A DNA stretch of 64,000 nt. Origin: Endomicrobiales bacterium. GTDB taxonomy: Bacteria; Elusimicrobiota; Endomicrobiia; Endomicrobiales; JALOBY01. The DNA lies in NCBI GenBank assembly GCA_963796955.1, contig CAWCNJ010000006.1, positions 102,691 through 166,690 on the forward strand, read 5' to 3'. The translations under genes and the position numbers were made by a program. Each line of letters opens with the position of its first letter. Position 1 is the first letter of the stretch. The notes under the pieces are model-generated. The model made no database searches. It was not told the origin of the DNA and saw only the letters and a list, made by a program, of their open reading frames with translations. Positions 40,504 through 64,000 of this stretch are shown piece after piece.

Positions 40504-40509
40504 TGTGGT

Positions 40510-41832: not shown

Positions 41833-41892
41833 TACCCAAGTAACCTTGAGTACTAAAACGATGGCCGCGTTACGTATGATGGTGCATTGTTT

Positions 41893-41930: not shown

Positions 41931-41941
41931 TTGCTTTATCG

Positions 41942-41970
41942 TTGAAAATTCAGTAATATTTGTTGTTACC
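41942..41970 (+). promoter_or_regulatory. conserved upstream box, copy 2
   Basis: TTGAAAATTCAGTAATATTTGTTGTTACC; see 5089-5117. Confidence 0.5.
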
Positions 41971-42003
41971 TGCCATACAGACGCCCTTAAACGTCTAAAT
42001 GTA

Positions 42004-42031
42004 TTGATATTCATACGATTCATCTTATAAT
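42004..42031 (+). promoter_or_regulatory. candidate promoter of giant gene B
   Basis: TTGATA (42004-42009), a 16-nt spacer, then TATAAT (42026-42031). It is followed by the conserved ATAATTTATAGTGA. Confidence 0.55.
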
Positions 42032-42067
42032 TTATAGTGAAGAAGTTACTGTATACCTTTTTTACTC

Positions 42068-45000
42068 ATGTATCACTATTTTCGCATGGAGAACGTCATG
42101 GTCGTTCGATTGTGTTTGCGAACAGTTAACTCTAAAAGCGCTACACTCGCGATAATTTTCGCGGTTGCTGCGCTATTATTTTTGCCCTCCGTTTCAATGG
42201 CTACCAGCGCGCCGACCAATGTAATGCAGCGTGTCAGCGGTTCTGTTACTCTTTCATCGTTCTCATGGACCAGCTCGTCTCTCATAGTCTCTTCGTTCAC
42301 TCTTCCCGGCAGCAGCTCATACTGCATTCAGGCAACCTCCGCCACCGTTAACGACCAACCGGACTGGACAAAGTTATTGTGGGGCACCAAGCGTTCCAGC
42401 GTACTGAACGCCGGCACGACCTGGTATAACTGGCCCGCCCTTACTTCTCCCGGCATTTACTGGTGGCGCATCTGGGCGGAAAGCGCCGGTGTGGCTTCCT
42501 CGACGATCACCGTGCTCTCCGCAGGCGGCCCGGCGGCATTCGCCTACAAGACTGATGTGGACCCGCGGGGCATCGATGTTTCGTCGGGTCTCGGTGTTGA
42601 TTTTGGGGAAGGCAATGGGGTTTTTGGCGGCCTGGCGCTTGGCGATTATGATAATAACGGCACGCTGGATCTTGCCGTGGCCGGTTACACAGGGTCTCAG
42701 ACCATATGCCGCGTTTATAAAGGCAATGGCGATGGAACATTTAACCAGGCGTTCGTTGAGCCGATCACCGGCTGGGGCTCCGATAACGGATCCATCAATT
42801 GGGGCGACTACAATAACGATGGTTCCCTTGACCTGCTGGTGAACGGTAATGGTTCTGATGGCCCGGTACATTTGTACGTTTTTAAAAACAACGGCGACGG
42901 TACGTTCAATTCAACGCCGATAGAGCCGAAACCTGGCTGGGGACTTCACTATGGAAATGCACAATGGGGAGATTATAACAACGACGGTTATCTGGACATA
43001 GTAACAGAGGGCCAGGATTATCCGGCATACCAAAATCGTTTCTATTTGTTCACGAATCTGGGCAATGGAAGCTTCAACCCTGTACCCATAGATCCCGATC
43101 CCAGTGACGCCTCAGGATATTCCACTGCAGGTTTTTTCGATTACAATAATGATGGTTACCTTGATATCTGCATGACCGGGACAGGAAGTTGGGACAACCG
43201 CATTTACAAGAACAACGGTGACGGTACCTTTACCAATTCAGGCAACGATGTGCCCTGGCCGTACGGCGGCGGGTATACCTACGGCGATTACGATAACGAC
43301 GGCAATGTGGATGTGTGCCTGCCCGACGGCATATGGCAGAACAACGGTAATGGCACGTTTTCCGGGGGCGTTCAGTTTGGTGGAAATGAGGGTACACCGG
43401 CTTTAGCAGACATGAATAATGATGGTAAATTGGATGTAGTCGTTGTCGGAAGTTATCAAGGCAACTTCTTAAAGCTGATCGCTAATAATGGCGGCAGCAA
43501 TTTTACGGCGACAGACCTGAGCCCCGCGACCACCGGGCAGAATTTTTCCTACATAGTTTTGGGAGATCTTGACGGTGACGGGGATGCCGACATAGTTGTA
43601 GCCGGCCAGAAGAATGATGGTTCGAACGCCAGGTTCCTGAGCGTATACAAGAATAAGAATTACGAAATGGGCAACACTAATACCGCGCCGCAGCCGCCCG
43701 CCGGTCTTACCGCCCTGTTTAGCTACAACGTTAACAGCGCCAGTATAACGCTGTGCTGGACGCCCGCCCAGTATGATGTGGGCCATTCCTCGTACTCGAT
43801 CTATTACAACGTGGAAATGGCGACCGCGCCCACAACGCTTACCGGCAGCAATATGAGGGTGTCCGGGGCTAACGGCTACAAAATACCCTGGGATTACCCT
43901 TCTGATCAAGGTAATTATATCCGCCCTGCGGTAAAACAGCGGGCAGGCCTTTCCCAAATTACACAGGGATCAAGTTATCAGGTTCCGTATGGCAATTTGC
44001 AGGCGAACGCCACCTATTACTTCCGCGTACAAACTATTGATGCCGGCTTGATGCGCAGTACCTGGTCTGCGGAAAGATCTATTTGTGCTGCGGCGCCGCT
44101 CCCGCCGAACACACCATCCGGGCTTATGCAATGCCTTGTGGGGGGTGCAACGGTATCGTCATACGGCTGGGTCGGCAAGGCGGGTGACGTTATATTTTCA
44201 TCGTTCACGCTTACGGACCCCAACGGCAGTAGCCCGGTTAAATACCGCATTCAAATAACCTCGGTTACCGCCGCCGGCATTGCCCCGGTCTGGAACCAGG
44301 GCATTGCGGTAGACTACACGTCCGGCTGGCTGCCGCAGGGGGCGACCACCTATTACTGGCCTGGCTTGCCGGTCGGATTGTACTGGTGGCAAGTGTATTG
44401 CATAAACGGAAGCAGCGTTGCATCGTCCGTAGCAACCACTCTTGCCGACGGCAACAACCCGGTGCTATCCTACAAGACGAATTTCGACCCTACCGGAATT
44501 GATCTGGTGCCCGGCCTGGGTGTTAACAGCGGTTTTGTCTCTCTCGGTGATTTCGATAACAACGGCACGCTTGATATGGCGGTTATTGGTTATACCGGCT
44601 CAAGCTACATTAGCAAGGTTTATAAAAACAACGGAGACGGGAGTTTTAACCAGATCGCAGTAGCGCCGAGCAACAGCGTGGGCGTTAATGGTTCCGCCGC
44701 CTGGGGTGATTATAATAACGACGGCGACCTGGACCTTGCGGTAAGTGGTTACGATGGCGGCTCTCCACGCCTGCGCATTTACAAAAATAGCGGTCTCGGA
44801 ACATTTAATTCTTCGCTGGACCTGATATCTGGCGGCGGTTTGGGTAGCAGCGGTGACCAAGGGGTTATTGCCTGGGGCGATTTCAACAATGACGGTTATC
44901 TTGACCTTGCAGGCGCAGGAACGGATGGTAGTGCGGAGCGTTTTTATGTGTTCATGAATAATGGCAATGGAAGTTTTAACACAACCCCTGTGCAGCCTGA

Positions 45001-48000
45001 TCCCGGCTGGGGTGTAGACAACTGGTGGGGCGGGATATGTACCGTTGATTGCAACAACGACGGTAACCTGGATATAGCCGTCGCAGGTACCAGTGACGGC
45101 TTCGCGGGCTATGCCAGAATATACAAAGGCAACGGCAACGGGAAATTTAATTCAGCTTTTACCACACCGGACGCGGGTTACAATGGGGGCGACCAGGGGT
45201 ATGCCTCAATGACGTTTGGGGATTATAACCTTGACGGCAACCTGGACGCAGCGGTAGGCGGTGTTGCGGGTTTCAGGGTGGATAAGGGCAATGGCGATGC
45301 GACCTTTACCGATACAACCCTTCAGCCTGACGGCGCCGGCTGGTTTGGCAGCGCCGACGGCGGTGCGGTAATCGCCTGGGCCGATATCAACAACGATGGT
45401 AAGCCCGATATGGTAATTGGCGGGCTTCAGAATGGCAACGGCGGTAAGTTCAGGCTGGAACTGAACAATGGCAATGGCACGTTCACGTCCAGCGATATCC
45501 AGCCCGGCTGGAACAGTTTCTGCAATGTTGCTCTTGGCGACCTGGACAACGACGGCGATGCGGACGCTGTCGTGTCGAATCAAAATGGTAATGACAGCGG
45601 CCACTACTATTTGAAAGCCTTCTTTAACAAAACCCATGAAATGGGTATCGCTACCAATGCGCCCGTCCCGCCGGGAAGTCTTACCTACCAGTCTTCATAC
45701 GCGATAACCGGTTCCACGGTAATGATAACCTGGCCGGCAGCGCAGTACGACGCAACCGCATCGTCGCGCACGCTTTCTTTCCAGGTGGAAATATCAACGG
45801 CTCAAACGACGCTTGCATCGAACAAAAAATTGATATCAGCGCCCTCGTCAGCCGGTGCATTCATAAATACCTGGGCGTCTGAAGGCGATGATTATGGAAC
45901 GTTTTACCGTCCTGCGGCAAAGGTCTGGGGTACGGATCCCTCGCCGAAATTCGGCATTCAGTTGAATTTAAGCACTGCCACCATCCAGGGCGGAACATCG
46001 TACTATTACCGCATACAAACCATTGATGGCAGTCTTTTGCGCAGTACCTGGTCGGTGGAAGGCACACTGTATATGCCCATGGGCACGGCGCCGGCTGCTA
46101 TCACCAACCTTACCGCATTGAAAGGCAACTCCGGTGGCGAGCTGAAACTAAACTGGACCTCCCCCGGCGCGGACGGAACCGCGAACAACATATACGGTGG
46201 TGTCTTTAAAATACGCTATTCCACCTACACCATCGCATCGGCCGGTTTCTGGACGGATGCGGCATCTAACTGGACGGACCCGTTAAACAAATATCAGATA
46301 ACGATACCTACCAACTCCACGCCGAGCACAACACAGTCAACGACGCTTGTAGGGCTTACCCCAGGCGGGACCTATTACGTCCGTGCCTGGGTGAGGGATG
46401 AGGTAGGCGTAGACAGTACCAGCTGGAACGGTAACTGGTCGGCGTTGTCTAATGCCGCGACCGCGTATGCGATGACGGCGACAACCCCGCAGGTGATAAG
46501 CGACCTGGTAGCCACGAACAATGCGGCTCTGGGCGCCGTTAATCTTGCCTGGACGGCACCCGGCGGTAACGGGCAGACCGGCGACCTGAACGCAGGTTCC
46601 GCCTTCAAAATTAAATATTCGACGGTGAACGTTATCACGACCGATAATTTTACGACCATGCAGTCTACTATGGCTATCCAGAGTATAACTATTTCAACGG
46701 TTGCTACTGCCATGAGCAGGCAGAGCTACAACGTAGGGGGGCTTACCAACGGCAAAAAATACTGGTTCGCGATCGAAACAGAAAATTCCCAGGCCGCCTG
46801 GTCGACATGGTACTCTTCAGCCACAGGGGACGGTCATACCACCTACAGCATACTGGCAAGCACGATCTGTTCGTACACTAACCATGCGCCGACAATATCC
46901 AGCCTGGAACAGCTGAACGGTTCAATGGTTTCAATGACTTCGTTTACCTGGATAAATTCCGGCGCTATCATTTCATCGTTCACTATCATCGATACCGACC
47001 TGGGCCAGCAGGTGCGGTTCAATATCCAGATAACGTCAATAACAACTAACGATGCTGCCGATTGGACCAGTATATTCGCCAGCACGCGCTCAGCTTTGAC
47101 CAGCCAGGGCACGTTGAACTATACCTGGCCGGCGTTGAACCCGAATGTGTACTACTGGTGGCGCGCCTGGGCGGAAGATCAATTTGGCTTAACATCAGCT
47201 ACCTCCACCGCGCTGGTAAGCGACGGTGCAGCGGTAATTGCCTATAAAACACCGTATGATCCGCATTTTATAGAACCTACCCCCGGCTGGGGAGTAGGAT
47301 ATTGGGGCGGCGGTACTGCCTGGGGCGACTTTAACGGTGACGGTAATCAGGACATCGCAGTTACCGGCTGCGGCTTTTGGGGCGGGAACGATTACCTCAG
47401 GGTTTATTTGAACAATGGTGACGGCACATTCAGTTCCTCGTATATAGAGCCGCAGATCGGCGTGGGTTTCCGCAGCGGCGCAGTGGCCTGGGGGGATTTT
47501 GATAACGATGGTGATCTGGATCTGGCGGCAACCGGCTCTGTCGACGGTGATGTTACCGGTATACTGAGAGTATACCGGAACAACGGCAATGGAGCTTCAT
47601 TTAGTACAACCTATACGGATGCGCCCGGTTGGGGCGGGTTCTACAGCTCAGTTGCCTGGGGCGATTATGATAACGACGGCAACCTTGATGTAGCTGTAAC
47701 GGGGACGTTGGATGGGACGGCAGCTAACGGAAGATTCAGGATATACCATAACACCGGCAACGGGACTTTTGACACGAATTACCTGCAACCCACGGCCAAT
47801 TGGGGCGTGACTTACAGTAACACAACTCCACGTATTGGCTGGGCGGATTATGAAAATGACGGAGACCTGGACATTGCTGTCTGCGGCACTGATATCAGCA
47901 GCACGAATGTTTTGCGTGTATACAAAAACAACGGCGACGGAACGTTCGCCTCCTCCCCTGCTCTCCTGGTCAATGATGTTATTGATTTTACCTGGAGCGA

Positions 48001-51000
48001 CTATGATAACGACGGTTATCTAGACATTATAGGCGTAACCGCAACCGGCAGGGACGTGAGGGTTTTTCCCAATAACCGGAACGGCACTTTAAACGCGTCC
48101 CCGGTGATGATTCTTCCCGGTCTCAATGTAGATTTTTATGCGCTTTGTGCAGGGGATTATGATAATGATGGCAATGTAGATGTGGTAGTTACGGGCCATG
48201 ATTTGACCAGCGATAACGGTTGTCTCAGGCAATACCGCAGCCTGGGTAACGGAACCTTTGATCAGAAGCCTACAAACCTTCTTCCCGGATGGGGGCCGCG
48301 TGTTTCAGGTTCCCTTGCGTTGTCGGACTACAATAACGATGGCGCTCTTGATATTGCGGTTACGGGTTGTTACGATACGGGGTGGACACCCACCTGGTTC
48401 CGCATCTTCCAAAATATGGAAGCCCAACTTGGCAACGCCAACACCGCCCCGGTGCCGCCAACTATTTCCACCGCGACGTTTAGCTATAGCGCCACCAGAA
48501 GCACATTTACTGTTGCCTGGGCACCGGGATATTACGACGTAGGCCATTCCTCCAACTCGGTTTATTACAATGTGGAAGTCGCCACATATCCTACCACGCT
48601 GCAATCGGACAATAAACGCATCGTAAATTCAAACAAGTTTGTCCAGACTTGGGATTTCGGCAGCCCCAACCTTGGCAGTTACATTCGCCCCGCGGTTTCC
48701 ACCAGCTGGGCCGGTGTTAAAGGCACCCAGATGGTTGGTTATACGATCGCCCCTTCAACAAACAATTATTTGCTTAACGCCACCACCTTCTATTTCCGTG
48801 TGCAAACCATAGATTCAGGACTTATGCGCAGCACCTGGTCTGCTGAATATTCCTGCCTCGCCTCATCGTTTGTTGCTTCACCATCGGCAGGTATTATGAT
48901 CGTAGCAGGGGCAACGGCCAGCAACCGGAACGACTCTGCGGGGACAGCCCTGACTGCCATGTTTGCCCAAGGCGTTCCGGCGGGAGATCTTCTGGTCGCC
49001 GCTGTAGCATATGAAGGTAACGGTGCAATTACCGTTGCTGACGGTAAAGGTCAGACCTGGCAGCCGGCGGTCACGAGATATGATTCCGGTAATACTACAA
49101 CGTGGGCCATATATTACATCTACAACACGCAGGCGCTGTCTTCTACCGCTGAGAAAACCGTAACACTGACGACGGTGTCTGGAACAACGTACCGGTATAT
49201 GGTGATAACTGAGTTTTCTGGGGCTCAGGCGAGTTCTGACCCGCTTGATAAAACTACTTCCGGCAACCGGTCTTTTTCTACAGGGGCGAACGGAATATTC
49301 ACCGATGCCTCGCCTACCCCGTCGGTCAACGGTGAACTGTTATTTTGCAGTCTTATGCAGGATTCTAACACCCATGTACCGCAAACAGCCGGGACAGATT
49401 TTACGATGGTAACGAACGGTATTGTACCCAATGATAGTATCAGTTCCAACTATCATTTGCATACTGAATACTATGTACAGCCGACCGCTGCCGCTCATCT
49501 GGGAACGTATACCTGTTCAGGTTCAGACGCCGATACGTACGCTATAGCGATGGCTACGTTCAAGCCTGCAACAGCCGGCGATACTACTCCCCCTGCGGCG
49601 ATAACGAACATTTCAGCCGTTACCGGTCTCTCGGGCGGCAGTATAAATCTAACTTGGACTGCGCCCGGGGATGACGGCATTTCCGGCGCCATTTCCGGCG
49701 GCGCTTTCAAGATCCGCTACTCGTCCTATACCCCCACCTCTTGGACGGATGCCGCTTCCAACTGGACTGACTACCTGAATAAATACCAGATCACCTTGTC
49801 CACCAATGCCACACCGGGCGCCTGGCAGGCACGTACTCTTACGGGCTTAACCGAAGGTGTTACCTATTACATCCGCGCCTGGAGCCGCGACGAAGTTGGT
49901 GTAGACAGCACCAGCTGGAACGGCAACTGGTCGACGTTATCGAACGGGGCGACAGCCTGGGCAACGGTTTCGCCCAAGCCGTCCTGCATAACGGACCTTG
50001 TTGCGACAACTAACGTTGCCGCGAACGGCATAACCCTTACCTGGACCGCTCCCGGCGATAACGGTCAAACCGGCAGTCTTACGGCCGGCTCCGTATTCAA
50101 AATAGAGTACTCTACGGTGAACGTTATCAACGGCGCAGATTTTGCATTATTGCCCTCCACCATGGTGATCCAGAGCGTGACGATATCTACAACAACAACT
50201 GCCATGAGCCGGCAGAGCTATACCCTTCCTTCGTTGAGCAATAACACAAAATACTGGTGCGCCATAAAGACCTGCAATGCCGAAGGGGGATGGTCGGTGT
50301 GGCAATCATCCGCAGATGTCGCGGCGTATAACATGCTTGCCGCCACGGTCTGTGTAAACGGGCCGAATAGCCCCCCGAACGCGCCGGCGAACCTGGTGCA
50401 ATACGACGGCTCTTTTGTAAATCTCTCGTCGTTCACCTGGACGAATTCAAGCACGATCATCTCATCGTTCACGCTTACCGACCCTGACGCAGGCCAGCAG
50501 GTGAAATACCGTTTACAGATCACCACTGTTTCCAGTAACGGCCTTGCCATCTGGACGAACGGGTATTTTATAGACTATACCTCGCCGCTTTTGAATCAGG
50601 GCACCACCACTTATTACTGGCCCACGCTGACGGCCGGTAAGTTCTACTGGTGGCGCGTCTGGGCGATAGATGCGGCAAATGCAACATCTTCCACTTCGAC
50701 CGTGCTCAGCTCGGGTGGCCCGGCGGTGGTTGCCTGGAATACGCCCTTCGACCCGAAGTACCGGGAACCCATGCCGGGTGACGGTATCGGCGGCGGCGGC
50801 TCCAGTCTTGCCTGGGGCGACTTCGACGGCGACGGGTATCAGGATCTTGCCATACTTGGCAACAGCAATAGCAGCGGTGACATAACCAAAGTGTTTCCCG
50901 GCAAGAGCGACGGTACATTCAACGCGGCGGTAACCTTGCCTTCGGGGCAAACGTTCAGCTCTGGCGGTGTGGCCTGGGGAGATTTTAACAACGACGGTTT

Positions 51001-51529: not shown

Positions 51530-51743
51530 CTGTTTTCCTCAACACCGGTAATTTCACCTTCAATACCGTGTCTCCCATTGTACTGACATCCACTATCAAC
51601 AATTTCACGAACGTCGCCGCGGGTGACGTTGATAATGACGGCCTCTCGGACGTATTTGTCGCCGGCAGCACCGGCACGGCATTGTATTACAATCGTAATG
51701 GAAGTTTTGTAAATCAACCCACCTTTCCATTCTGGCCGCTGTA
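50714..51743 (+). repeat. 1,030-bp tract near-identical to 5682..6712 in gene A
   Basis: See 5682..6712. This copy carries the 1-nt deletion that breaks gene B. Confidence 0.9.
51295..51296 (+). other. frameshift site 2 (one T missing relative to the gene A copy)
   Basis: Gene A reads ggt tct tgt gcc ccc tcg ctt cag tgg ctg gat (6258-6290). Gene B reads ggt tct gtg ccc cct cgc ttc. Restoring the T gives GSCAPSLQWLDVENDGDLDLAMAG and runs straight into ORF 51352..61947. Confidence 0.9.
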
Positions 51744-57700: not shown

Positions 57701-60700
57701 GCCAGTGGTCCACCTGGCAGTCTTCCTCGGACGCGGCGGCCTACAATCTTCGAGCCAGTACGGTATGTAAGTACACAAATTCCGCCCCTCTGGCGCCCTC
57801 AGGCCTGGTACAGTACGACGGTTCAATGGTAAGCCTTTCGTCGTTCACCTGGACGAACTCTAGCACGATCATCTCATCCTTCACGCTTACCGACCCGGAT
57901 GCAGGCCAGCAGGTGAAATACTGTTTGCAGATCACCACCGTTTCCAGCGCCGGTCTTGCCACTTGGACGAGCGGCTATTTTTGGAATTATACTTCCCCGC
58001 TTTTGAACCAGGGCACGACCACCTATTACTGGCCCGCGCTTACAGCAGGTAATTACTACTGGTGGCGCGTTTGGGCGATAGATGCGTTCGGCGCGACCTC
58101 CTCAACCACCACGGCACTGATGAGCGGCGGCGCGCCGGTGTTTGCCTACAAAACGCACTTTGATCCCGTTGCCAGAAATATAATCAACGGTTTAAGTGTG
58201 GCCAATGCATTTGCCGCTCTTGGCGATTTTGACGGTAACGGCACGCTGGATCTGGCGATCACCGGCAATACGGGTTCCGGCTTTGTCAGCAGGGTTTATA
58301 AAAATAACGGTGACGGGAGTTTTAACCAGGCGCCGGTATCCATACCGGTCATCCCCCTCGGCAGCGGCTTGTCCGACGGAGCGGTAGCCTGGGGCGATTT
58401 TGACAACGATGGGGATCTGGATATCGCAATTAACGGCACGCTCAATCCCGGCAACAGGTTGTTTGTTTTCCGCGGTAACGGTAATGGAACATTCAACCCG
58501 TCGCCGATATACCCAAACCCAGGGTGGGGCGATACCGGAATGATCACCTGGGCTGATTTCAACAATGACGGCTACCTGGACCTTGCTGCTTCGGGATACG
58601 ACGGATCGGCAGGCCACAATTATATATTCCTGAACAACCGCCTTGGCGATTTTAATCACACTCCCGTGGAGCCTGATGCCACCTGGGGGCCGGCTAGCTT
58701 TGACAACTGGGTTTCCGCCGCCGATTTTAACAATGACGGTAATCTTGATCTTGCTGTCGTCGGCACCGATGCAGGATACAACGGGCATGCAAGGATATAT
58801 AAAGGTAATGGCAATGGTACCTTTAACGCTTCCTATGTATCGCTTGATGCCAACAACGATCAGGGCTATTCTTCCATCACCTTCGGTGACTATAACCTTG
58901 ACGGCAACCTGGATGTCGAGGTGGGTGGTAACGATCTGTTCGCGGTGAACACGAATAACGGTAACGGTACTTTCGGAACGGCTGTAACGCCTGAAGGCGG
59001 GGCCGGCGGCGGGCAGTTCGGTAACAATTTTGGCGGTGTATTTGCTGCCTGGGCTGATATTAACAACGACGGTAAACCCGATATGGTGGTCAGCGGGTAT
59101 CGGGAAACGAATTCGGGCATGGTTCGTCTTGAGCTGAACAACGGTAATGGAACATTCACTCCCACTGAGATCCAGCCGGCATTGCAAAGTTTCTGTCAGG
59201 TAGCACTTGGTGACCTGGATAACGACGGCGATGTCGACGCGGTAATGTTGGGTTCTTCTCCAAATTATTATCTTGCGGCCTTCTTCAACAAGAACAGTGA
59301 TATGGGGAATGCGAATACCATCCCTGTGCCGCCCGCAGGCTTGTCGTATCAGTCTTCGTATAACATAACGAATTCAACGGTTGTCGTTACCTGGCCTGCG
59401 GCGCAGTATGACGCAGGTATGTCTTCCCGCACCCTTTCTTTCCAGGTCGTCATTGCATCCGTGCCCATGACGCTCGCAACCGACCAGACGAAGATAGCAT
59501 CGCCGGGCGCGTTTTTAACTACCTGGGTCTCTCAGGGCGACGGATTCGGGGCGTTTAACCGGCCGAACTTCAGCTACCGGTTGAACCTGAGCACCGCGGG
59601 AATTACCGCAGATACCTCCTATTACTACCGTGTACAGACGATAGACGGCAGCCTTGCGCGCAGCACCTGGTCTGCGGAAAGTAAGTTGTATATGCCTATG
59701 GGCCTGGCGCCTGCTGCCATTACCAACCTTACCGCATTGAAAGGCAATTCCGGCGGCGAACTGAAACTAAGCTGGACCTCTCCGGGCGCGGACGGCACCG
59801 CGAACAACATATACGGCGGCGTCTTTAAAATACGCTATTCCACCTACACCATCGCATCAGCCGGCTTCTGGACGGACGCGGCAACCAACTGGACGGATCC
59901 GGTAAACAAATATCAGATAACGATACCCACAAATTCTGTGCCGAGCGTAACGCAGTCGGCAACCCTTGTCGGGCTTACTCCCGGCGGGACGTATTACATC
60001 TGCGCCTGGACGAGGGATGAAGTGGGTGTGGACAGTACCAGCTGGAACGGTAACTGGTCGGCGTTGTCCAACGGCGCAACTGCCTGGGCTATGACGGCAA
60101 CTGCGCCGCAGGTGGTAAGCGACCTGGTGGCTGTCAACAATGCCGCATTGGGCGTCATCAATCTTACCTGGACTGCTCCGGGCGGTAACGGACAAACGGG
60201 CGACCTGAACGCAGGTTCCGCCTTCAAGATAGAATATTCGACGGTGAACGTTATAACTACCAATAATTTTACCGTCATGCAGTCCACTATGGCTATCCAG
60301 AGCATAACTATTTCAACGGTAACTACTGCCATGAGCAGGCAAAGCTATAACGTAGGAGGGCTTACCAGCGGCAAACAATACTGGTTCGCGATCGAAACGG
60401 AAAATTCCCAAGCCGCCTGGTCTACGTGGTACTCTTCAGCTACAGGGGACGGTCATACCACCTACAACATACTGGCAAGCACGATCTGTTCATACACCAA
60501 CCATGCGCCAACCATATCCAGTCTGGAACAGTTGAACGGTTCGATGGTGTCAATGTCTTCGTTTACCTGGACGAATGCCGCTACGATCATTTCGTTGTTC
60601 ACTATCAGGGATACCGACCTGGGCCAGCAGGAGAAATATCATATACAAATATCTACGGTTATAAGTGCGTCGGGTCTTGCCACCTGGACGAGCGGGTATT

Positions 60701-61947
60701 TTGTCAATTATACGTCGACGCTGATAACCCAGGGTACCACGGCATATTATTGGCCCGTGCTGACGGCCGGCAATTTCTATTGGTGGCGCGCCTGGGTGGA
60801 AGACCAGTATGGCCTATCGTCGGCTACTTCAACGGCGCTGGTAAGCGGCGGTGCTGCGGTACTGGCGTATAAAACAGTGTTCAATCCGATATACACTGAA
60901 CCGCAGCCGGGGTATGGGTATGGTGTAAGTTTCGGCTCATCGCTCTCCATGGGTGATTTTGACGGCGATGGGTATCAGGATATCGCGGCCTGCGGCATAC
61001 GGCAGGATGGATATTACACCGCCGTGTATTTGAACAATAGTTTCGGTGATGGAACATTCAGTGCAAACTATATTGAGCCACAGCCAGGGCTGGGCGGGGT
61101 AAGCAACGGCGATGTCGCCTGGGGTGACTTCAATAATGACGGCAAACTTGACCTTGCGGTCACGGGCTACAACGGCGATCCGGGTATACTCAGGGTGTAT
61201 ATCAATGCGGGGAATAATTCATTCTCCGGATACGTTGAGCCGACTCCCGGCTGGGGCCGTTATTGGAGCGCCGTCGCCTGGGGTGATTATAATAACGACG
61301 GTAACCTTGATCTTGCGATGTACGGCGGCGATGACAGCAGCTCCGCAGACGGTATATGCAGGATATACCGCAATAAGGGCGACGGGTCGTTCGATCCGAA
61401 CTATTATGTGCCGACGGCCGGCTGGGGCATGAGTTACAATAATACCAATATCGGACGTATCGCCTGGGCGGATTATGACAACGACGGCGATCTGGATATC
61501 GCTTTCAGCGGCGACGATAACAGCGGTGTGCATGCGCAACGCGTGTACCGCAACAACGGCGACGGCACTTTCTCGGCCGCGCCGGTGTTTACATTAAGCT
61601 GGAATGCAGATGATATAGCTTGGGGCGACTACAATAACGACGGCTTTTTGGACCTCATGGCTACGTCCGGCAATACGGTGGTGGTATATCCCAATAACGG
61701 CAATGGTACCATCAACTCGACGCCGGTCACCTTAGTCACAAATACGCTAAGCGCATGCCATCTGGTGCTGGGCGATTATGATAACGACGGTAATACCGAT
61801 GCCGGCGTGATCGGCCAGTCTAATGGCGCCGGTGTTCTGAAATTCTATCATAACCATGGCAACGGTACGTTTGATGCCACAGATGTTACGCCGCTGCCGG
61901 GATGGGGCATTTACGGCAAGGGTAACATAAGGCTCTGGGGATGTTAA
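51352..61947 (+). CDS. giant FG-GAP/VCBS + FN3-like repeat surface protein, gene B, middle fragment (3531 aa)
   Basis: It continues propeller B4 mid-blade (MAGNAGGTYSMSIYRNQ...), so ATG 51352 is not a genuine start. It contains four further supermodules and terminates inside blade 7 of propeller B8 (GKGNIRLWGC*). Confidence 0.9.
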   Translation: MAGNAGGTYSMSIYRNQNSTFAFGSAPVFEYDPVSAAAWGDFNNDGFMDFAGVDSNSRVAVFLNTGNFTFNTVSPIVLTSTINNFTNVAAGDVDNDGLSDVFVAGSTGTALYYNRNGSFVNQPTFPFWPLYADESIALADYNADGALDAAFAGGDLLGADYFRVFNGKQTNTAPVPPSPSVTLTYSGAAVNRSTFTVTWPPSQYDTGNSSNSLYYQVEVSTFPTALSGDALRITTGGRYQNPWNFGTPGLGGFVRPAVSTSWAGVTGSQMQGFMFSPSTATLAASTSFYFRVQTIDAGLKRSTWSAEYMCVIATYAPSGVTDLTATTNIGINGISLAWTAPGDHALSGNLTSGSQFKIEYSSVGIINTANFDSPPANLAATAIYISTVTTARSRQSWSVPNLQNNTVYWFAVKTENSAGLWSVWQSSADVATYNLQASTRCVAVNHAPNAPANLVQYDGSFVSLSSFTWTNSSTIISSFTLTDPDAGQQVKYCLQITTVSSAGLATWTSGYFWNYTSPLLNQGTTTYYWPTLTAGKFYWWRVWAIDAANATSSTSTALSSGGAAVLTYKTDFDPNGIRIVPGLGLYGNDVYSQLALGDFDNNGTLDLAVTGEDINSLFDFRVYSGNGDGTFNFLPALRNDGTYFASLAWGDYNNDGDLDIALSAGNIENTIGLYVYRNKGNGTFDTTPLQPAGAGVGIGGGLAWGDFNNDGFLDLAASGWINATTEKFYIYKNNCNGSFNTTPVQPDSAMLFGGYEGSPISCADFNNDGLLDISVCADYWQSRLYKNDGDGTFTITNVGVTDVPYGQAYAFGDYDNDGSLDIASPGGVYQNNGAGSFSMGPALPSNGDYYCPSSWADFNNDGKLDLVESGGFDYEYLIELTNNGSSGFSGTEIMPGFGLGDASLAVGDVDNDGDTDIIASGGNGAANLLLFKNKNSEMGNANIAPVPPSGLSYQSSYFISNSTVIITWPAAQYDTGMSSRTLSFQVVIASAPMMLASNQSLITSPGAFITTWAAEADGFGTFNRPVAKIWGSDISPKFGYQLNLTTASITGDTSYYYRVQTIDGDLKRSTWSAESKLYIPMGPAPAAITNLTALTGASGGEIKLSWTFPGADGTANNLVGGVFKIRYSSYTTGSAGFWTDAASNWVDQVNKYQVTIATNATLSKTQSATLVGLTPGVTYYARAWTRDEVGVDSTSWNGNWSALSNGATAWAMTATSPQVVSDLVATNNSAIGAVKLTWTAPGGNGQTGDLNAGSAFKIEYSTVNVITTNNFTAMQSTMAIQSITISTVTRAMTTQTYNVGGLTNNKQYWFAIETENSQGNWSTWYSSATGDTHTTYNILASTVCSFANHQPAISNLEQLNGSLVSMTSFTWTNSGTLMSSFTISDADYGQQVRFVVQITSATNNAGAANWATLFQTARSGLIPQGTTTYIWPALNPNAFYWWRAWAEDSYGLSSTTSTALVSGGSAVLAYKTPFNPAFIEPQPGWGIGWHGPAVSWGDFNGDGYQDLAIGGNDSNNQYMRVYMNNGAGGFNSYVEPQPGHGVRLGEMQWGDFNNDGKLDLAVTGYDGDPGLCRVYINAGNGTFSASYVDATSGWGRYYGNLAMGDYNNDGNLDLAVIGTADINPLRVFRIYRNKGDGTFDTNFVSPQSGWGISGDDSNSTDYTRVAWGDFENDGDLDIATCGIDTNNTQVMRVYKNNGDGSFNSTAALITNTVYDLAWGDYDNDGFLDVIAASATTICAFRNNGNGTLNATPVNILGNLNIANTRISLGDYDNDGNIDIAATGQDIASGQGMLRFYHSLGNGNFDQSPVNILPGWGMYQCGAMALADYDNDGGIDIAVAGQGSGTATDCYLRVFNDMQAQLGNANTAPTAPAISSMTFSYSAPQSTFTITWLPGQYDVSHSSNSVYYELAVSTFSTSLSADSKRLTTGGCYQSPWNFGTPNLGSFIRPAVSTNWAGVKGTQMVGYTITPSTNDYLLNATTFYFRVQTIDSGLTRSAWSSEYTCLASSYVALPGTPAGITDLTAANNSSISGISLVWTATGDSGQSGNLTSGSVFKVEYSTVGILTTGNFDSPPAGLAVTTVNISTTATAMSRQSYNLPGLLTNTTYWFAIKTENGEGQWSTWQSSSDAAAYNLRASTVCKYTNSAPLAPSGLVQYDGSMVSLSSFTWTNSSTIISSFTLTDPDAGQQVKYCLQITTVSSAGLATWTSGYFWNYTSPLLNQGTTTYYWPALTAGNYYWWRVWAIDAFGATSSTTTALMSGGAPVFAYKTHFDPVARNIINGLSVANAFAALGDFDGNGTLDLAITGNTGSGFVSRVYKNNGDGSFNQAPVSIPVIPLGSGLSDGAVAWGDFDNDGDLDIAINGTLNPGNRLFVFRGNGNGTFNPSPIYPNPGWGDTGMITWADFNNDGYLDLAASGYDGSAGHNYIFLNNRLGDFNHTPVEPDATWGPASFDNWVSAADFNNDGNLDLAVVGTDAGYNGHARIYKGNGNGTFNASYVSLDANNDQGYSSITFGDYNLDGNLDVEVGGNDLFAVNTNNGNGTFGTAVTPEGGAGGGQFGNNFGGVFAAWADINNDGKPDMVVSGYRETNSGMVRLELNNGNGTFTPTEIQPALQSFCQVALGDLDNDGDVDAVMLGSSPNYYLAAFFNKNSDMGNANTIPVPPAGLSYQSSYNITNSTVVVTWPAAQYDAGMSSRTLSFQVVIASVPMTLATDQTKIASPGAFLTTWVSQGDGFGAFNRPNFSYRLNLSTAGITADTSYYYRVQTIDGSLARSTWSAESKLYMPMGLAPAAITNLTALKGNSGGELKLSWTSPGADGTANNIYGGVFKIRYSTYTIASAGFWTDAATNWTDPVNKYQITIPTNSVPSVTQSATLVGLTPGGTYYICAWTRDEVGVDSTSWNGNWSALSNGATAWAMTATAPQVVSDLVAVNNAALGVINLTWTAPGGNGQTGDLNAGSAFKIEYSTVNVITTNNFTVMQSTMAIQSITISTVTTAMSRQSYNVGGLTSGKQYWFAIETENSQAAWSTWYSSATGDGHTTYNILASTICSYTNHAPTISSLEQLNGSMVSMSSFTWTNAATIISLFTIRDTDLGQQEKYHIQISTVISASGLATWTSGYFVNYTSTLITQGTTAYYWPVLTAGNFYWWRAWVEDQYGLSSATSTALVSGGAAVLAYKTVFNPIYTEPQPGYGYGVSFGSSLSMGDFDGDGYQDIAACGIRQDGYYTAVYLNNSFGDGTFSANYIEPQPGLGGVSNGDVAWGDFNNDGKLDLAVTGYNGDPGILRVYINAGNNSFSGYVEPTPGWGRYWSAVAWGDYNNDGNLDLAMYGGDDSSSADGICRIYRNKGDGSFDPNYYVPTAGWGMSYNNTNIGRIAWADYDNDGDLDIAFSGDDNSGVHAQRVYRNNGDGTFSAAPVFTLSWNADDIAWGDYNNDGFLDLMATSGNTVVVYPNNGNGTINSTPVTLVTNTLSACHLVLGDYDNDGNTDAGVIGQSNGAGVLKFYHNHGNGTFDATDVTPLPGWGIYGKGNIRLWGC
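53041..54155 (+). repeat. 7-bladed FG-GAP/VCBS beta-propeller B5
   Basis: Seven blades counted, from LALGDFDNNGTLDLAV to LAVGDVDNDGDTDIIA. Ends at FKNKNSEMGNANI. Confidence 0.85.
55744..56920 (+). repeat. FG-GAP/VCBS beta-propeller B6
   Basis: Runs from VSWGDFNGDGYQDLAI to MALADYDNDGGIDIAV. Ends at FNDMQAQLGNANT. Confidence 0.8.
58131..59295 (+). repeat. FG-GAP/VCBS beta-propeller B7
   Basis: Runs from AALGDFDGNGTLDLAI to VALGDLDNDGDVDAVM. Ends at FNKNSDMGNANT. Confidence 0.8.
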
Positions 61948-62025
61948 TAATGACGGTGTTTTGGATGTTGCCGTAACAGGGGGCGATGCAGGCAATAATC
62001 CCTATTTCCGCGTTTTCCAGAATAT
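60852..62025 (+). repeat. FG-GAP/VCBS beta-propeller B8 (contains frameshift 3)
   Basis: Runs from LSMGDFDGDGYQDIAA through the frameshift to GDVNNDGVLDVAV. Ends at FQNMEAQLGAGNT. Confidence 0.8.
61927..61930 (+). other. frameshift site 3 (one extra A)
   Basis: The observed sequence is ggt aac ata agg ctc tgg gga tgt taa. Removing one A (ataagg to atagg) gives GNIGSGDVNNDGVLDVAV. GWGIYGKGNIGSGDVNNDG then aligns without gaps to GWGINGCGSIALSDYNNDG of propeller A4. Confidence 0.8.
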
Positions 62026-64000
62026 GGAAGCTCAGCTGGGCGCCGGCAACACAGCGCCTGTGCCGCCTGCTATTTCCAATGTTAATTTCAACTACAGCGC
62101 TTCACGCAGCACGTTTACCATAACCTGGAATCCTGCGCAATATGACGTAAGCCACTCATCCTGCTCGCTCTATTTCAACGTGGAAGCTTCTACTTCGCCG
62201 ACGACGCTTTCCGCGAACAAAATGGGAATGACCGTACCCAACAGCCATTTTGTGCAGACTTGGAATTTCGGCAGTCCAAATCAGGGCAGCTATATCCGGC
62301 CCTCAGTTTCCACCAACTGGGCCGGTGTTGCCGGCACGTCGATGGTCGGCTATACTCTGGCTCCCGCGACGAATACCTGGCTGTTGAACGCTACCACGTT
62401 TTATTTCCGCGTCCAAACCATCGATTCTGGCCTGATGCGCAGCACCTGGTCGGCGGAGTTTTCCTGCTTTGCCTCTACCGGGGCGGCCGATATCACGCCG
62501 CCGGCGGCGATAACGAACATCGCCGCAGTTACCGGTTTTACAGCCGGAACGATAAATTTAGCCTGGACCGCTCCCGGTGATGACGGCATAACCGGCAGCA
62601 TAGTCGGGGGTGCCTTCAAGATCAGATATTCCACTTTCACGCCTGCATCGTGGAGCGATGCGGCCGCGAACTGGACGGATTTCACCAATAAATACCAACT
62701 CACGATCGCGACGGATGCGGTGCCCAGCGTTACGCAGTCGTATACCCTCACCGGTTTAACGGGTGGCGTAACGTACTATATTCGCGCCTGGACGCGCGAT
62801 GAGGTTGGCGTAGACAGCACCAGCTGGAACGGCAACTGGTCGGCGTTGTCTAACGGCGCTACCAGCTGGGCGCAGATAAACCACGCGCCCAACGCCCCGG
62901 CGAACCTTGCGCAGCTGGACGCTTCGCTGGCAAATCTCTCATCCTTCACCTGGACGAATTCAGGCACGATAATTTCTTCATTTACGCTCACCGACCCCGA
63001 CGCCGGCACACAGGTGCGGTTCAATCTGCAAATAACTTCCGTTACAACCGGCGGCGCGGCCGATTGGTCAAGATTGTTCGTCAGCACCCGTTCCGCATTA
63101 TTAAATCAGGGGACTACAACGTTTATCTGGCCGACGTTGAACCCGAACGCCTTCTACTGGTGGCGCGTATGGACGGAAGACAGCGGCGGTCTTACCTCTT
63201 CGACCTCTACTGCCCTGATGAACGGCGGACCGGCTGTTCTTGCTTACAAAACGCCGTTTGACCCGAGGTTCGTTGAGCCTACACCGGGCTGGGGATGCGG
63301 GCATTACGGCTCGGCGCTGGCTTGGGGAGATCTTAACGGCGACGGCAATCAAGAACTTGCGGTAGCGGGTATCATAGGCACAACACCGCAAACACACATA
63401 TACATGAACAATGGCGATGGCACATTCAACCCGTCGTATAACACCCTTCCATCGGGCGTAGAGATCGGCTGTCCGGACCTGCAATTTAGTGATTTTAATA
63501 ACGATGGAAAAATGGACCTGCTTGCCGCCGGCTGGCCCAGCGCCGACCCCGGTATCGTAAGAATATATCTTGGCAATGGCGATGGCACATTAAATCCCAC
63601 GTATGTTGACGCGATGCCCGGTTATGGCAGGTATTGGATATCGGCCCGCCTCGGCGATTATGATAACGACGGTAACCTGGATATCGCGATAACCGGTTCT
63701 GATGATGCCGGGCCGCAGACCTCTACCTTCAGGATATATCACAACAAAGGAGACGGGACATTTGACGCTAATTTCATAGAGCCAAACCCCGGTTGGGGAG
63801 TTTCAAATCAGGGACCAGGTTGGGATCCTGTTGGTGGTCGTCTGCTCTGGGGCGACTACGATAATGACGGCGACCTGGACATCGCCTTATGCGGCCAGGA
63901 CATTAACAACAACCAGCTGATGCGCATCTACCGCAACAGCGGTACGGGTACGTTTTTTAGCGCAACGCCAATTATGCAGGTCAGCGATATAAACGATATT
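61931..64000 (+). CDS. giant FG-GAP/VCBS + FN3-like repeat surface protein, gene B, third fragment; 3' end outside the window
   Basis: Frame 2 is open from 61931 to the window edge, exactly 690 codons: GSGDVNNDGVLDVAVTGGDAGNNPYFRVFQNMEAQLGAGNTAPVPP... followed by QYD, FN3-D and WWR modules and the first four blades of propeller B9. It is not listed in the ORF track because it has no ATG start or stop. Confidence 0.85.
63230..64000 (+). repeat. FG-GAP/VCBS beta-propeller B9 (truncated by window end)
   Basis: LAWGDLNGDGNQELAV, LQFSDFNNDGKMDLLA, ARLGDYDNDGNLDIAI, LLWGDYDNDGDLDIAL. It is colinear with propeller A4 (12270-13040). Confidence 0.8.

What the first reader, a model, noticed from the sequence alone, without database searches (positions are those of the whole stretch)
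42068..64000. Gene B is a second, paralogous giant gene (at least 7,300 codons) with a shuffled module order
Gene B shares four things with gene A: the N-terminal signal region, which is colinear residue for residue from ATG 42098 versus 5244; the upstream control region; the supermodule grammar; and many modules. The order of homologous modules differs, however. The QYD module at ~48440-48870 matches the gene A module at ~6830-7260 at roughly nine of ten nucleotides by eye. Their neighbouring propellers are not each other's best matches. Separately, propeller B9 (63230 onward) is colinear with A4 (12270 onward), although the preceding modules at 62040-63230 resemble those that follow A4 (13456-14290). 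This indicates block duplication and recombination between two giant paralogs. The C-terminus of gene B, and any CTD or partner gene, lies beyond the window.
Basis: partly seen in the sequence, partly recalled or inferred. Interest (0 to 1): 0.7.

Follow-up and report, generated by a model that had tools for sequence, protein, structure and literature searches.

The report
Second giant mosaic adhesin-like gene
Gene B is a real second copy of a giant secreted beta-propeller/fibronectin-domain surface protein gene in an uncultivated Elusimicrobiota bacterium; it has swapped pieces with its neighbour gene A (one 1-kb piece very recently), but as deposited it is broken by two one-base frame shifts.

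Summary
Gene B (42098 to the window end) has gene A's grammar: signal peptide, then repeats of [WWR fn3-like domain, 7-bladed FG-GAP propeller, QYD fn3-like domain, 0-2 fn3 domains]. The upstream region is shared, and the 90% QYD match (48444-48862 vs 6835-7253) and the B9/A4 pairing are real.

First, B is not one ORF as deposited. It changes frame at about 51294 and at 61936-61939. It reads as 7,300 codons without a stop only after two one-base corrections. Gene A needs one correction too.

Second, the strongest evidence for recombination is a tract of 1,031 nt (A 5682-6712 = B 50714-51743). It differs by one substitution and one indel, and that indel is B's first frame shift. Flanking sequence is only about 40-50% identical.

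Module trees put A and B modules in well-supported cross-gene pairs that are not colinear. No single register explains the best matches. Identical runs of 207 nt and 131 nt lie inside more diverged module pairs, so gene conversion has recurred.

Gene A ends in a CHU_C (T9SS type-B-like) domain followed by a PorV/PorQ-like barrel gene. A 99% identical twin of that barrel gene lies on the same 191-kb contig. It is probably gene B's partner.

This is a new member of a known kind, and moderately interesting.

The parts
41893..42044 (+). Upstream region shared with gene A (5040-5190): terminator-like hairpin (about 41892-41930), then a promoter-like site (TTGATA 42004-42009, TATAAT 42026-42031)
   Evidence: 78% identity over 152 nt. 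14-bp stem in both copies. The promoter-like site matches 11 of 12 positions and lies 67 nt before the conserved ATG in both genes.
42098..51301 (+). Gene B, segment 1 (frame 2). The conserved start is ATG 42098. The deposited ORF is 42068-51529.
   Evidence: ORF list and frame scan. Start aligned with A 5244. FG-GAP_3 E=5e-126 and fn3. The source calls 42068-51529 as a separate 3,153-aa protein.
42098..42199 (+). Signal-peptide-like N-terminus (MVVRLCLRTVNSKSATLAIIFAVAALLFLPSVSMA)
   Evidence: Read directly from the sequence. Aligns with gene A's N-terminus. No signal-peptide predictor was run.
51290..51296 (+). Frame shift 1 of gene B. One T is missing (GGTTC-TGTG) compared with the otherwise identical copy in gene A (GGTTCTTGTG at 6258-6267).
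   Evidence: Alignment of the identical tract. Homology continues in frame 1.
51304..61938 (+). Gene B, segment 2 (frame 1). Open from 51286; the deposited ORF is 51352-61947.
   Evidence: FG-GAP_3 E=1.4e-172 and fn3.
61936..61939 (+). Frame shift 2 of gene B, at TGGGG (one extra base, or two missing). The blade motif ...IRLW(G)DVNNDG continues in frame 2.
   Evidence: Sequence and translations.
61940..64000 (+). Gene B, segment 3 (frame 2), open to the end of the window. Holds QYD8, FN11, WWR9 and the first 4 blades of propeller B9.
42554..43678 (+). Propeller B1, preceded by WWR1 (42200-42553) and followed by QYD1 (43679-44086)
   Evidence: 7 DxDxDG blades. Module HMM hits. In clade P-I with A9, B2, B5, B7, bootstrap 100.
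44480..45655 (+). Propeller B2, preceded by WWR2 (44102-44479) and followed by QYD2 (45656-46069), FN1 (46085-46471) and FN2 (46478-46870)
   Evidence: WWR2 pairs with AWWR9, bootstrap 100.
47252..48439 (+). Propeller B3, preceded by WWR3 (46880-47251)
   Evidence: In clade P-II with A4, A10, B6, B8, B9, bootstrap 90.
48440..48862 (+). It is 90% nt and 92% aa identical to AQYD1 (6831-7253).
   Evidence: blastn 89.98% over 419 nt. dS 0.41, dN/dS 0.09. Bootstrap 99. The QYD fold is fn3-like.
48863..49579 (+). X1, a 239-aa domain found only in gene B, followed by FN3 (49580-49963), FN4 (49976-50353) and WWR4 (50366-50743)
   Evidence: No match in gene A. No Pfam or NCBIfam hit. Homologous to free-standing proteins of 233-257 aa. 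The model has pLDDT 65.7 and no significant fold match.
50714..51743 (+). Recent gene-conversion tract. It is 1,031 nt in gene A's coordinates and equals A 5682-6712 except for 1 substitution (51167 G vs 6135 A) and the 1-nt deletion. It covers the last 30 nt of WWR4 and most of propeller B4 (50744-51861).
   Evidence: Exact runs of 453, 128 and 449 nt. Windowed identity and mismatch list. APROP1/BPROP4 98% aa.
51862..53061 (+). QYD4 (51862-52284), FN5 (52291-52674), WWR5 (52684-53061)
   Evidence: WWR5 holds a 131-nt run identical to WWR7 (52792 vs 57886).
53062..54174 (+). Propeller B5, followed by QYD5 (54175-54585), FN6 (54601-54984), FN7 (54991-55383), WWR6 (55393-55767)
55768..56943 (+). 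Propeller B6, followed by QYD6 (56944-57366), FN8 (57388-57768), WWR7 (57778-58155)
58156..59313 (+). Propeller B7, followed by QYD7 (59314-59691), FN9 (59707-60090), FN10 (60097-60489), WWR8 (60499-60876)
   Evidence: Part of the roughly 3.2-kb block present three times in B at 68-70% nt identity.
60877..62044 (+). Propeller B8 (frame shift 2 lies in its last blade), followed by QYD8 (62045-62473), FN11 (62489-62872), WWR9 (62879-63253)
63254..64000 (+). Propeller B9, cut by the window end. Closest to APROP4 (12293-13477).
   Evidence: 76% aa, bootstrap 100. blastn at 70.9%.
5244..38653 (+). Gene A, the paralog used for comparison: 11,136 codons after one frame correction at 12210-12214, 11 propellers, CHU_C domain at the C-terminus
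   Evidence: CHU_C 29.9 bits, above Pfam's cut-off of 27.
38657..40354 (+). Gene A's partner: a PorV/PorQ-like outer-membrane barrel plus TPR, 565 aa. A 99% identical twin (P0006) lies elsewhere on the same contig.
   Evidence: NF033709 E=7.8e-17 (61.8 bits, below the cut-off of 90). PorP_SprF E=0.0037. Twin.
40510..41832 (+). AAA_14/DUF4143 ATPase gene directly upstream of gene B. A 28% identical relative at 3833-4972 sits upstream of gene A.

Best explanation
Gene B is a genuine second giant gene. It is paralogous to gene A and lies about 3.4 kb downstream of it on the chromosome of an uncultivated Elusimicrobiota bacterium.

Both genes encode a Sec-exported 'beads on a string' protein. It is built of seven-bladed FG-GAP (integrin-alpha-like, DxDxDG calcium-loop) propellers, spaced by two to four fn3-type beta-sandwich domains (the WWR, QYD and FNa/FNb modules). 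The most likely function is a very long cell-surface adhesin or fibre. Gene A ends in a CHU_C (T9SS type-B-like) sorting domain and is followed by a PorV/PorQ/PorP-like outer-membrane barrel. By analogy with SprB/SprF and PG1035/PorP, that barrel would anchor the protein. Gene B very probably ends the same way beyond the window.

The two genes are not a plain duplicate pair. They share the grammar, but their modules are related in a mosaic way. This came from old duplications of blocks of several modules, for example a roughly 3.2-kb block present three times in B. It also came from repeated gene conversion between and within the genes. The latest such event copied about 1 kb between propeller A1 and propeller B4.

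The two frame shifts in B and the one in A are single-base length changes at short base runs. Most likely they are consensus errors of the assembly or very recent mutations. They are not signs of long-standing pseudogenes or of separate genes.

Shown: paralogy, grammar, mosaic pairing, conversion tracts, frame shifts. Inferred: surface-adhesin role, T9SS-like export and anchoring, the cause of the frame shifts, the 3' end of B.
For: DOMAINS
- FG-GAP_3, FG-GAP and fn3 hits.
- 61 DxDxDG motifs in 9 clusters of about 7, spaced about 54 aa apart.
- The QYD model matches fn3 structures: Foldseek probability about 1.0 but E only about 3e-3, none at or below 0.001, target TM up to 0.6.

SHARED GRAMMAR
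- Module HMMs find 8 QYD, 11 FN and 9 WWR modules in B, and 11, 12 and 11 in A.

SPECIFIC, NON-COLINEAR PAIRING
- Identity matrices and NJ bootstraps.
- Register test.

GENE CONVERSION
- The 1,031-nt tract has 1 substitution and 1 indel. About 25 of the 41 positions just 5' of it mismatch.
- Exact runs of 453, 449, 207 and 131 nt.
- QYD A1/B3 is 90% identical and the match ends exactly at the module borders.

BLOCK DUPLICATION
- Three copies of about 3.2 kb in B at 68-70% identity.

PURIFYING SELECTION
- dN/dS 0.05-0.23 for 16 module pairs, and 0.38 for the near-identical APROP1/BPROP4 pair.

FRAMES
- After three one-base corrections, 18,436 codons carry no stop.
- Homology continues across each shift.

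SECRETION CONTEXT
- CHU_C above Pfam's cut-off. PorV/PorQ-family and PorP_SprF hits in the downstream gene.
- Twin partner gene on the same contig.
- Type-B CTD proteins bind PorP-like proteins (PMC9143113).

TAXON
- TypA/BipA is 74-82% identical to Elusimicrobiota proteins.
- Elusimicrobiota are reported to be enriched in proteins over 5,000 aa (PMC11573180).
Against: - As deposited, gene B is three ORFs and gene A is two. The source annotation calls them separately. No independent reads could be examined, so real inactivation cannot be excluded.
- The only independent sequence, Logan contig L001, differs from the window by a TGA plus a 1-nt deletion at codon 57 of gene B. That could be a true null variant.
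- The 3' end of B, its CTD and its partner were not seen. The contig could not be retrieved.
- CTD and partner assignments are weak. TIGR04131 scores 24.5 bits against a cut-off of 35. PorV_fam scores 61.8 against 90. PorP_SprF is below its cut-off.
- The host is not in the phyla where T9SS is established.
- Most module pairings are old (dS above 1). For those, differential duplication and loss cannot be told apart from recombination.
Confidence: 0.72

Rival explanations
1. Gene B (and perhaps gene A) is a recently inactivated pseudogene. The frame shifts are real. B survives only as decaying DNA, or as a silent donor of modules for conversion into an expressed copy.
For: Two frame shifts in B and one in A in the deposited sequence. 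The source annotation splits the genes. The Logan contig carries a further stop and indel near the 5' end of B. The shift at 51294 lies inside the freshly converted tract.
Against: There is no in-frame stop in 18,436 codons after three one-base corrections, and the frames stay open for 26.5 kb, 10.6 kb and more than 2 kb after the shifts. So any inactivation must be very recent. All three events are one-base length changes at short base runs, which is the typical form of consensus error. B keeps its own promoter-like site, start codon and signal peptide.
Confidence: 0.2
2. The near-identical 1-kb tract is an artefact of assembly or polishing (reads from one paralog used to correct the other), not a biological conversion event.
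For: The contig is a 191-kb metagenome assembly that spans exact repeats of 453 and 449 nt and carries indels at short base runs. This fits long-read data, where polishing can mis-assign reads. That last step is inference.
Against: The two copies are not identical (one substitution and one indel). The 5' edge is sharp, whereas identity decays stepwise on the 3' side (about 90% for 6713-6848, then about 70%). That pattern is expected of nested conversion tracts. Other, older tracts (207 nt and 131 nt identical runs, and the 90% QYD pair) show the same process at different ages.
Confidence: 0.08
3. A and B come from a plain tandem duplication of a whole gene followed only by divergence and by gain or loss of modules, with no exchange between them.
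For: Long gapped blastp alignments (2,292 columns at 50% and 3,383 at 46%). The order of QYD subtypes and the numbers of FN domains in B supermodules 1-6 match those in A supermodules 2-7 (my reading of the module lists and clades). Identity peaks at registers k = 1 mod 3.
Against: Divergence alone cannot place a 99.8% identical kilobase inside genes whose N-termini are 45% identical. Adjacent modules have discordant, well-supported partners: AP1 pairs with BP4 but AQ1 pairs with BQ3. No register reaches the best-pair identities.
Confidence: 0.03
4. The three open frames of 'gene B' are three separate genes that are translated independently.
For: They are listed as separate ORFs with possible start codons, and the source calls the first one separately.
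Against: Each break falls in the middle of a propeller blade, and the homologous sequence continues in the next frame. Only the first frame has a promoter-like site and a signal peptide.
Confidence: 0.02

Closest known systems
SprB/SprF of Flavobacterium johnsoniae and PG1035/PorP of Porphyromonas gingivalis (T9SS type-B CTD cargo with a PorP-like anchor; PMC9143113)
   Same: A very large repetitive surface protein with a Sec signal. Gene A has a CHU_C / type-B-like C-terminal domain and an outer-membrane barrel gene of the PorV/PorQ/PorP kind immediately downstream.
   Different: The host is Elusimicrobiota, not Bacteroidota. The CTD and barrel hits are weak or below the curated cut-offs. The barrel carries an extra TPR domain. 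The repeat content is FG-GAP propellers plus fn3, which as far as I recall is not what SprB is built from; I did not compare the sequences. Gene B's own CTD and partner were not seen.
Giant FG-GAP propeller / fn3 proteins of uncultivated bacteria (for example P0127 6,515 aa, P0131 3,660 aa, P0144 1,957 aa; Elusimicrobiota loci L002, L003, L047)
   Same: The same building blocks and partly the same grammar: propeller, then a QYD-like module, then fn3 domains. P0144 carries '...AYDTGYSS...YYWRIQTIDAGLKESAWS'. 14,675 representative proteins match at E<=1e-10.
   Different: At most 40-47% identity to B. I did not look for the WWR module systematically in these proteins. Nothing is known about paralog pairs or conversion in them.
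Bacterial 'huge proteins' and giant genes (over 5,000 aa; Elusimicrobiota, Omnitrophota, Planctomycetota: PMC11573180; bioRxiv 10.1101/2023.11.21.568195)
   Same: Length class: A has 11,136 codons and B at least 7,300. The phylum is reported to be enriched in such proteins.
   Different: The terms FG-GAP, VCBS, paralog, frameshift, type IX and recombination do not occur in the text of the Omnitrophota giant-gene preprint.
Concerted evolution and segmental gene conversion among repeat-rich surface protein genes (for example pilE/pilS, vlsE, MgPa/MgPar, tprK; from general knowledge)
   Same: Patchy tracts of identity between paralogous surface-protein sequences, with sharp borders and different ages.
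   Different: Both copies look expressible, since each has a promoter-like site, a start codon and a signal peptide. There is no sign of silent cassettes, no dedicated recombination site was seen, and there are no population data on variation.

Membership tests
FG-GAP / VCBS beta-propeller repeat proteins | Significant matches to FG-GAP repeat models | tested here: met
   PF13517 E=5e-126, 1e-172 and 5e-29 for the three pieces. PF01839 is also above its cut-off.
FG-GAP / VCBS beta-propeller repeat proteins | Blades grouped in sevens, each with a DxDxDG calcium-loop motif | tested here: met
   9 clusters of 7 motifs spaced about 54 aa apart. One cluster has 8, and the last has 4 because it is cut by the window end. 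Calcium binding itself was not tested.
T9SS type-B CTD cargo with PorP/SprF-like partner | N-terminal Sec signal peptide | tested here: met
   Basic n-region, hydrophobic core and SMA/SNA cleavage-like site in both genes, by inspection of the sequence only. No predictor was run.
T9SS type-B CTD cargo with PorP/SprF-like partner | C-terminal type-B sorting domain (CHU_C / TIGR04131) in gene B | not testable with these tools
   The 3' end of gene B lies outside the window and the contig could not be fetched. In gene A, CHU_C scores 29.9 bits (cut-off 27) but TIGR04131 scores 24.5 (cut-off 35).
T9SS type-B CTD cargo with PorP/SprF-like partner | PorP/SprF-like barrel gene directly downstream | tested here: inconclusive
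   For gene A, the 38657-40354 product matches PorV_fam over residues 23-309 (E=7.8e-17, but 61.8 bits against a cut-off of 90) and PorP_SprF at E=0.0037. For gene B, a 99% identical twin is on the same contig but its position is unknown.
T9SS type-B CTD cargo with PorP/SprF-like partner | Host belongs to Bacteroidota or the FCB group and carries the core T9SS genes | tested here: not met
   The best named TypA hits are Elusimicrobiota. Core T9SS genes could not be searched because only the window is available. So I say it works like this system, and I do not file it as a member.
Bacterial giant genes / huge proteins (over 5,000 aa) | A single reading frame of more than 5,000 codons | tested here: inconclusive
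   As deposited, B's longest ORF is 3,531 aa (open frame of 3,553 codons). It reaches at least 7,300 codons only after two one-base corrections. Gene A's second ORF alone is 8,817 aa.
Gene-conversion antigenic-variation systems (expression site plus silent cassettes) | Segmental conversion tracts between paralogous copies | tested here: met
   The 1,031-nt tract, the 207-nt and 131-nt identical runs, and the 90% QYD module.
Gene-conversion antigenic-variation systems (expression site plus silent cassettes) | Donor copies are silent (no promoter or start) and variation is seen within a population | tested here: not met
   Both genes have a promoter-like site, a start codon and a signal peptide. 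Population variation cannot be tested here.

The most novel reading that the evidence does not exclude
Two (possibly more) neighbouring giant genes form a self-diversifying adhesin system in a phylum not known to have a T9SS. Module-sized gene conversion between the expressed paralogs would continually reassort the propellers that presumably bind ligands. One-base slips at short base runs would switch individual copies off and on. Export and anchoring would use a CHU_C domain plus a PorV-like/TPR barrel pair, a type-B-like sorting route outside the FCB group.
Probability: 0.12. Interest if true: 0.7.

Novelty: new member of a known kind. Interest (0 to 1): 0.42.

Why it matters
The locus gives a dated, base-level record of how giant repetitive genes evolve. 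It combines an old, partly colinear scaffold, block duplications, and conversion tracts of several ages between two neighbouring genes of more than 20 kb each.

It is also a warning for annotation. Each gene is split into two or three 'proteins' by one-base frame changes, so giant proteins from such assemblies are under-counted.

If the CHU_C domain and PorV-like partner are functional, the locus also points to a type-B-like sorting and anchoring route in Elusimicrobiota.

Tried and rejected
EXTENDING THE CONTIG TO FIND THE 3' END OF B (all failed)
- Exact look-ups of the partner, TypA and P0006 found no record.
- The AAA_14 protein returned only a 2.5-kb Logan contig.
- Scans of genome contigs and metagenome contigs with the last 686 aa of B returned only relatives at 44% identity or less.
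- The search for homologous proteins listed nothing longer than about 1,200 aa for that query, and so not B's last ORF.
- The representative search returned the contig's own first pieces of A and B, but not B's last ORF.

DOMAIN X1
No Pfam, NCBIfam or PDB sequence match. The AlphaFold model is only moderate (pLDDT 65.7) and Foldseek found nothing significant. Its fold is left unassigned.

TOOLS THAT FAILED

OTHER NEGATIVE RESULTS
- A literature search for giant genes with FG-GAP found nothing. The Omnitrophota giant-gene preprint does not mention FG-GAP, paralogs, frameshifts or recombination.
- No Rfam family and no tRNA in the window.

REJECTED READINGS
- Programmed frameshifting or phase variation. 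I saw no slippery motif at the three sites, the base runs are only 2-5 nt long, and the shift at 51294 is a plain deletion relative to the identical copy in gene A.
- Reading the Q8-W9-P9 versus P4-Q4-W5 order as a proven permutation. B's modules after P9 are unseen.

Full report
LAYOUT
The + strand of the window carries these genes in order:
- an ABC-F fragment
- typA/bipA (1973-3769)
- an AAA_14/DUF4143 ATPase gene (3833-4972)
- giant gene A
- a 565-aa gene for a PorV/PorQ-like barrel plus TPR (38657-40354)
- a second AAA_14/DUF4143 gene (40510-41832), only 28% identical to the first
- giant gene B, which runs off the end of the window

TypA is 74-82% identical to proteins named Elusimicrobia or Elusimicrobiota. 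The closest full-length relatives of B in the genome collection are also Elusimicrobiota. The source contig is 191,110 bp and is held by NCBI and ENA.

IS GENE B ONE GENE?
Not as deposited. A scan for stop-free stretches shows frame 2 open 42041-51526, frame 1 open 51286-61944, and frame 2 open 61931-64000. The ORF list therefore shows 42068-51529 (3,153 aa) and 51352-61947 (3,531 aa). The source annotation calls 42068-51529 as a protein of its own.

Both breaks fall inside a propeller blade, and the blade sequence goes on in the next frame. At the first break, the nearly identical copy in gene A reads GGTTCTTGTG where B reads GGTTC-TGTG. So B lacks one T there. The second break lies at TGGGG (61936-61939). 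Gene A has the same kind of break at GGG 12210-12212.

After three one-base corrections, A reads 11,136 codons and B reads 7,300 codons with no stop. The frames stay open for 26.5 kb, 10.6 kb and 2 kb after the shifts. So the shifts are either assembly errors or very recent mutations. I could not examine reads.

The only independent sequence is a 2.5-kb Logan contig from run ERR11718638. It matches 40255-42733 with 2 substitutions and 1 indel. The indel and one substitution (TGG to TGA) fall in codons 57-58 of gene B. Indel-level disagreement between assemblies of this population is therefore common. That fits error, but it does not prove error.

WHAT THE PROTEIN IS
- Pfam finds FG-GAP_3, FG-GAP and fn3.
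- A DxDxDG motif scan finds 61 blades in B. They fall in nine clusters of about seven, spaced about 54 aa apart. A has eleven such clusters.
- The linkers have a fixed grammar. After each propeller comes a QYD module (about 140 aa), then 0-2 fn3 domains of two subtypes, then a WWR module (about 125 aa), then the next propeller.
- A model of the QYD module built from its 19 paralogs (pLDDT 74) matches fn3 domains in the PDB (Foldseek probability about 1.0 but E only about 3e-3, none at or below 0.001; target TM up to 0.6). WWR gives weak Ig_Rha78A_N hits.
- Both genes start with a typical signal peptide.
- Gene A ends in a CHU_C domain: 29.9 bits against a cut-off of 27, but TIGR04131 scores 24.5 against 35.
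- The gene after A matches the PorV/PorQ family over its whole barrel (E=7.8e-17, below the curated cut-off) and PorP_SprF weakly.

Type-B CTD proteins are known to bind PorP-like barrels for surface anchorage. SprB binds SprF, and PG1035 binds PorP (PMC9143113). I therefore read A and B as very long secreted surface fibres or adhesins that work like such pairs. I do not file them as T9SS members, because the host phylum and the weak scores do not meet that test.

- QYD match: confirmed. 48444-48862 vs 6835-7253 is 89.98% identical over 419 nt, 92% aa, bootstrap 99.
- Neighbouring propellers: they are indeed unrelated, at 43%.
- B9 vs A4: 76% aa, bootstrap 100.
- QYD8 vs QYD4: 76% aa, bootstrap 83. 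WWR9 vs WWR5/WWR10: 79/78% aa, bootstrap 78.
- Upstream region: 78% identical over 152 nt. It contains a 14-bp hairpin with a U-rich tail and a TTGATA-16-TATAAT site. In both genes the site ends 67 nt before the conserved ATG, 42098 in B and 5244 in A. This supports those two ATGs as the true starts.
- N-termini: 45% identical over 199 aa with 13 gap positions.

The best A-B match is not the QYD module. It is B 50714-52275 vs A 5682-7241.

Within that match, A 5682-6712 and B 50714-51743 differ by one substitution and one indel over 1,031 nt. The exact runs are 453, 128 and 449 nt long. The 5' edge is abrupt, with 25 mismatches in the 41 nt before it. On the 3' side, identity falls in steps, to about 90% (6713-6848) and then to about 70%. 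Propellers A1 and B4 are therefore 98% identical, while every other A-B propeller pair is 29-76% identical.

This is a very recent gene conversion. B's first frame shift sits inside the tract.

Two further identical runs show the same process within each gene:
- 207 nt in QYD10/QYD11 of A, a pair that is 89.5% identical overall
- 131 nt in WWR5/WWR7 of B, a pair that is 82.8% identical overall

Under uniform divergence, runs of these lengths would have probabilities of about 1e-10 (0.895^207 and 0.828^131, my arithmetic).

IS THE ORDER SHUFFLED?
Partly. NJ trees with 200 bootstraps give strong cross-gene groups:
- propellers {A9, B1, B2, B5, B7}, bootstrap 100
- propellers {A4, A10, B3, B6, B8, B9}, bootstrap 90
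- QYD {A3, A6, A9, B2, B5, B7}, bootstrap 100
- QYD {A2, A8, B1}, bootstrap 100
- WWR {A9, B2}, bootstrap 100

Sorted along B, the reciprocal best A partners jump between A9, A3-4, A1, A6, A10 and A4-5. Adjacent modules also disagree. Propeller A1 pairs with B4, but the next module, QYD A1, pairs with QYD B3.

No register B_i~A_(i+k) reaches the best-pair identities. The register means are at most 56%, against best-pair means of 58, 69 and 71%.

Yet there is an older, partly colinear layer:
- blastp gives gapped alignments of 2,292 and 3,383 columns at 50% and 46%.
- The QYD subtype order and FN-domain counts of B1-B6 match those of A2-A7 (my reading of the module lists and clades).
- Identity peaks at registers k = 1 mod 3.
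- B also contains three copies of a block of about 3.2 kb at 68-70% nt identity.

The history is therefore scaffold duplication, then block duplications, then repeated conversion. Synonymous divergence ranges from 0.03 (A1/B4) through 0.3-0.6 (several pairs) to above 2. dN/dS is 0.05-0.23 for every pair except the near-identical A1/B4 pair, which is 0.38. The modules have evolved under purifying selection.

It cannot be read as a permutation, because B's modules after P9 are outside the window.

BEYOND THE WINDOW
The partner protein of gene A has a twin on the same contig that is 561/565 identical. This suggests that B, or a third copy, also ends with such a partner, and that the 3' ends of the loci are much more alike than the 5' ends. 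All attempts to fetch the rest of the contig failed.

HOW UNUSUAL IS IT?
- The building blocks are common. 14,675 representative proteins match the last 686 aa of B at E<=1e-10, many of them several thousand residues long, and some have the propeller, QYD-like, fn3 order.
- Outside its own contig, nothing is more than about 47% identical.
- Elusimicrobiota are already reported to be enriched in proteins over 5,000 aa (PMC11573180).
- Concerted evolution of repeat-rich surface genes is well known.

I rate this a new member of a known kind. Its value is as an unusually clear example of ongoing exchange between two neighbouring giant genes, and as a warning that one-base frame errors hide giant genes.

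Noticed in passing
window 12205-12220: Gene A also changes frame (frame 3 to frame 2) at GGG 12210-12212, in the middle of a WWR module. It is deposited as two ORFs (2,347 aa and 8,817 aa) but reads 11,136 codons after one correction.
   Followed up: yes
same contig, outside the window (protein P0006): A second copy of the PorV-like/TPR partner gene, 561/565 identical to 38657-40354, lies on the same 191,110-bp contig. Its position is unknown.
   Followed up: partly
window 48863-49579: A 239-aa domain (X1) present only in gene B. Its only relatives found are free-standing proteins of 233-257 aa without any Pfam domain (P0394-P0399, 33-45% identity). The predicted beta-rich fold has no significant PDB match.
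   Followed up: yes
window 3833-4972 and 40510-41832: Each giant gene is preceded by an AAA_14/DUF4143 ATPase gene, but the two are only 28% identical. The second lies in a GC-poor stretch (41.5% against about 52%).
   Followed up: partly
L001 2014-2015 = window 42268-42270: An independent Logan contig (run ERR11718638) has TGA plus a 1-nt deletion where the window has TGGACC. This would truncate gene B at codon 57. It is either a null variant in the population or an error in one of the assemblies.
   Followed up: partly
window 27200-27406 vs 31559-31765; 52792-52922 vs 57886-58016: Identical runs of 207 nt (QYD10/QYD11 of gene A) and 131 nt (WWR5/WWR7 of gene B) inside module pairs that are 89.5% and 82.8% identical overall. 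These look like small conversion tracts within each gene.
   Followed up: partly
window 31976-35803: Gene A holds a run of tandem repeats, judged from blastn self-match offsets that are near multiples of about 294 nt (about 98 aa). It gives SusE and Ig_Rha78A_N hits and has no counterpart in the visible part of gene B.
   Followed up: partly
window 28004-29593: A 530-aa insert found only in gene A, with a choice-of-anchor Q domain hit (29.8 bits against a cut-off of 25).
   Followed up: no
genes A and B, supermodule level: Mean identity of B_i vs A_(i+k) peaks at k = -2, +1, +4 and +7. This suggests a higher-order repeat of three supermodules in gene A, on top of a two-supermodule repeat in gene B.
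   Followed up: partly
window 58192-59187 (-), 56293-57051 (-), 55834-56292 (-): Long antisense ORFs (152-331 aa) lie inside gene B. They are probably by-products of the composition of the repeats. I did not examine them.
   Followed up: no
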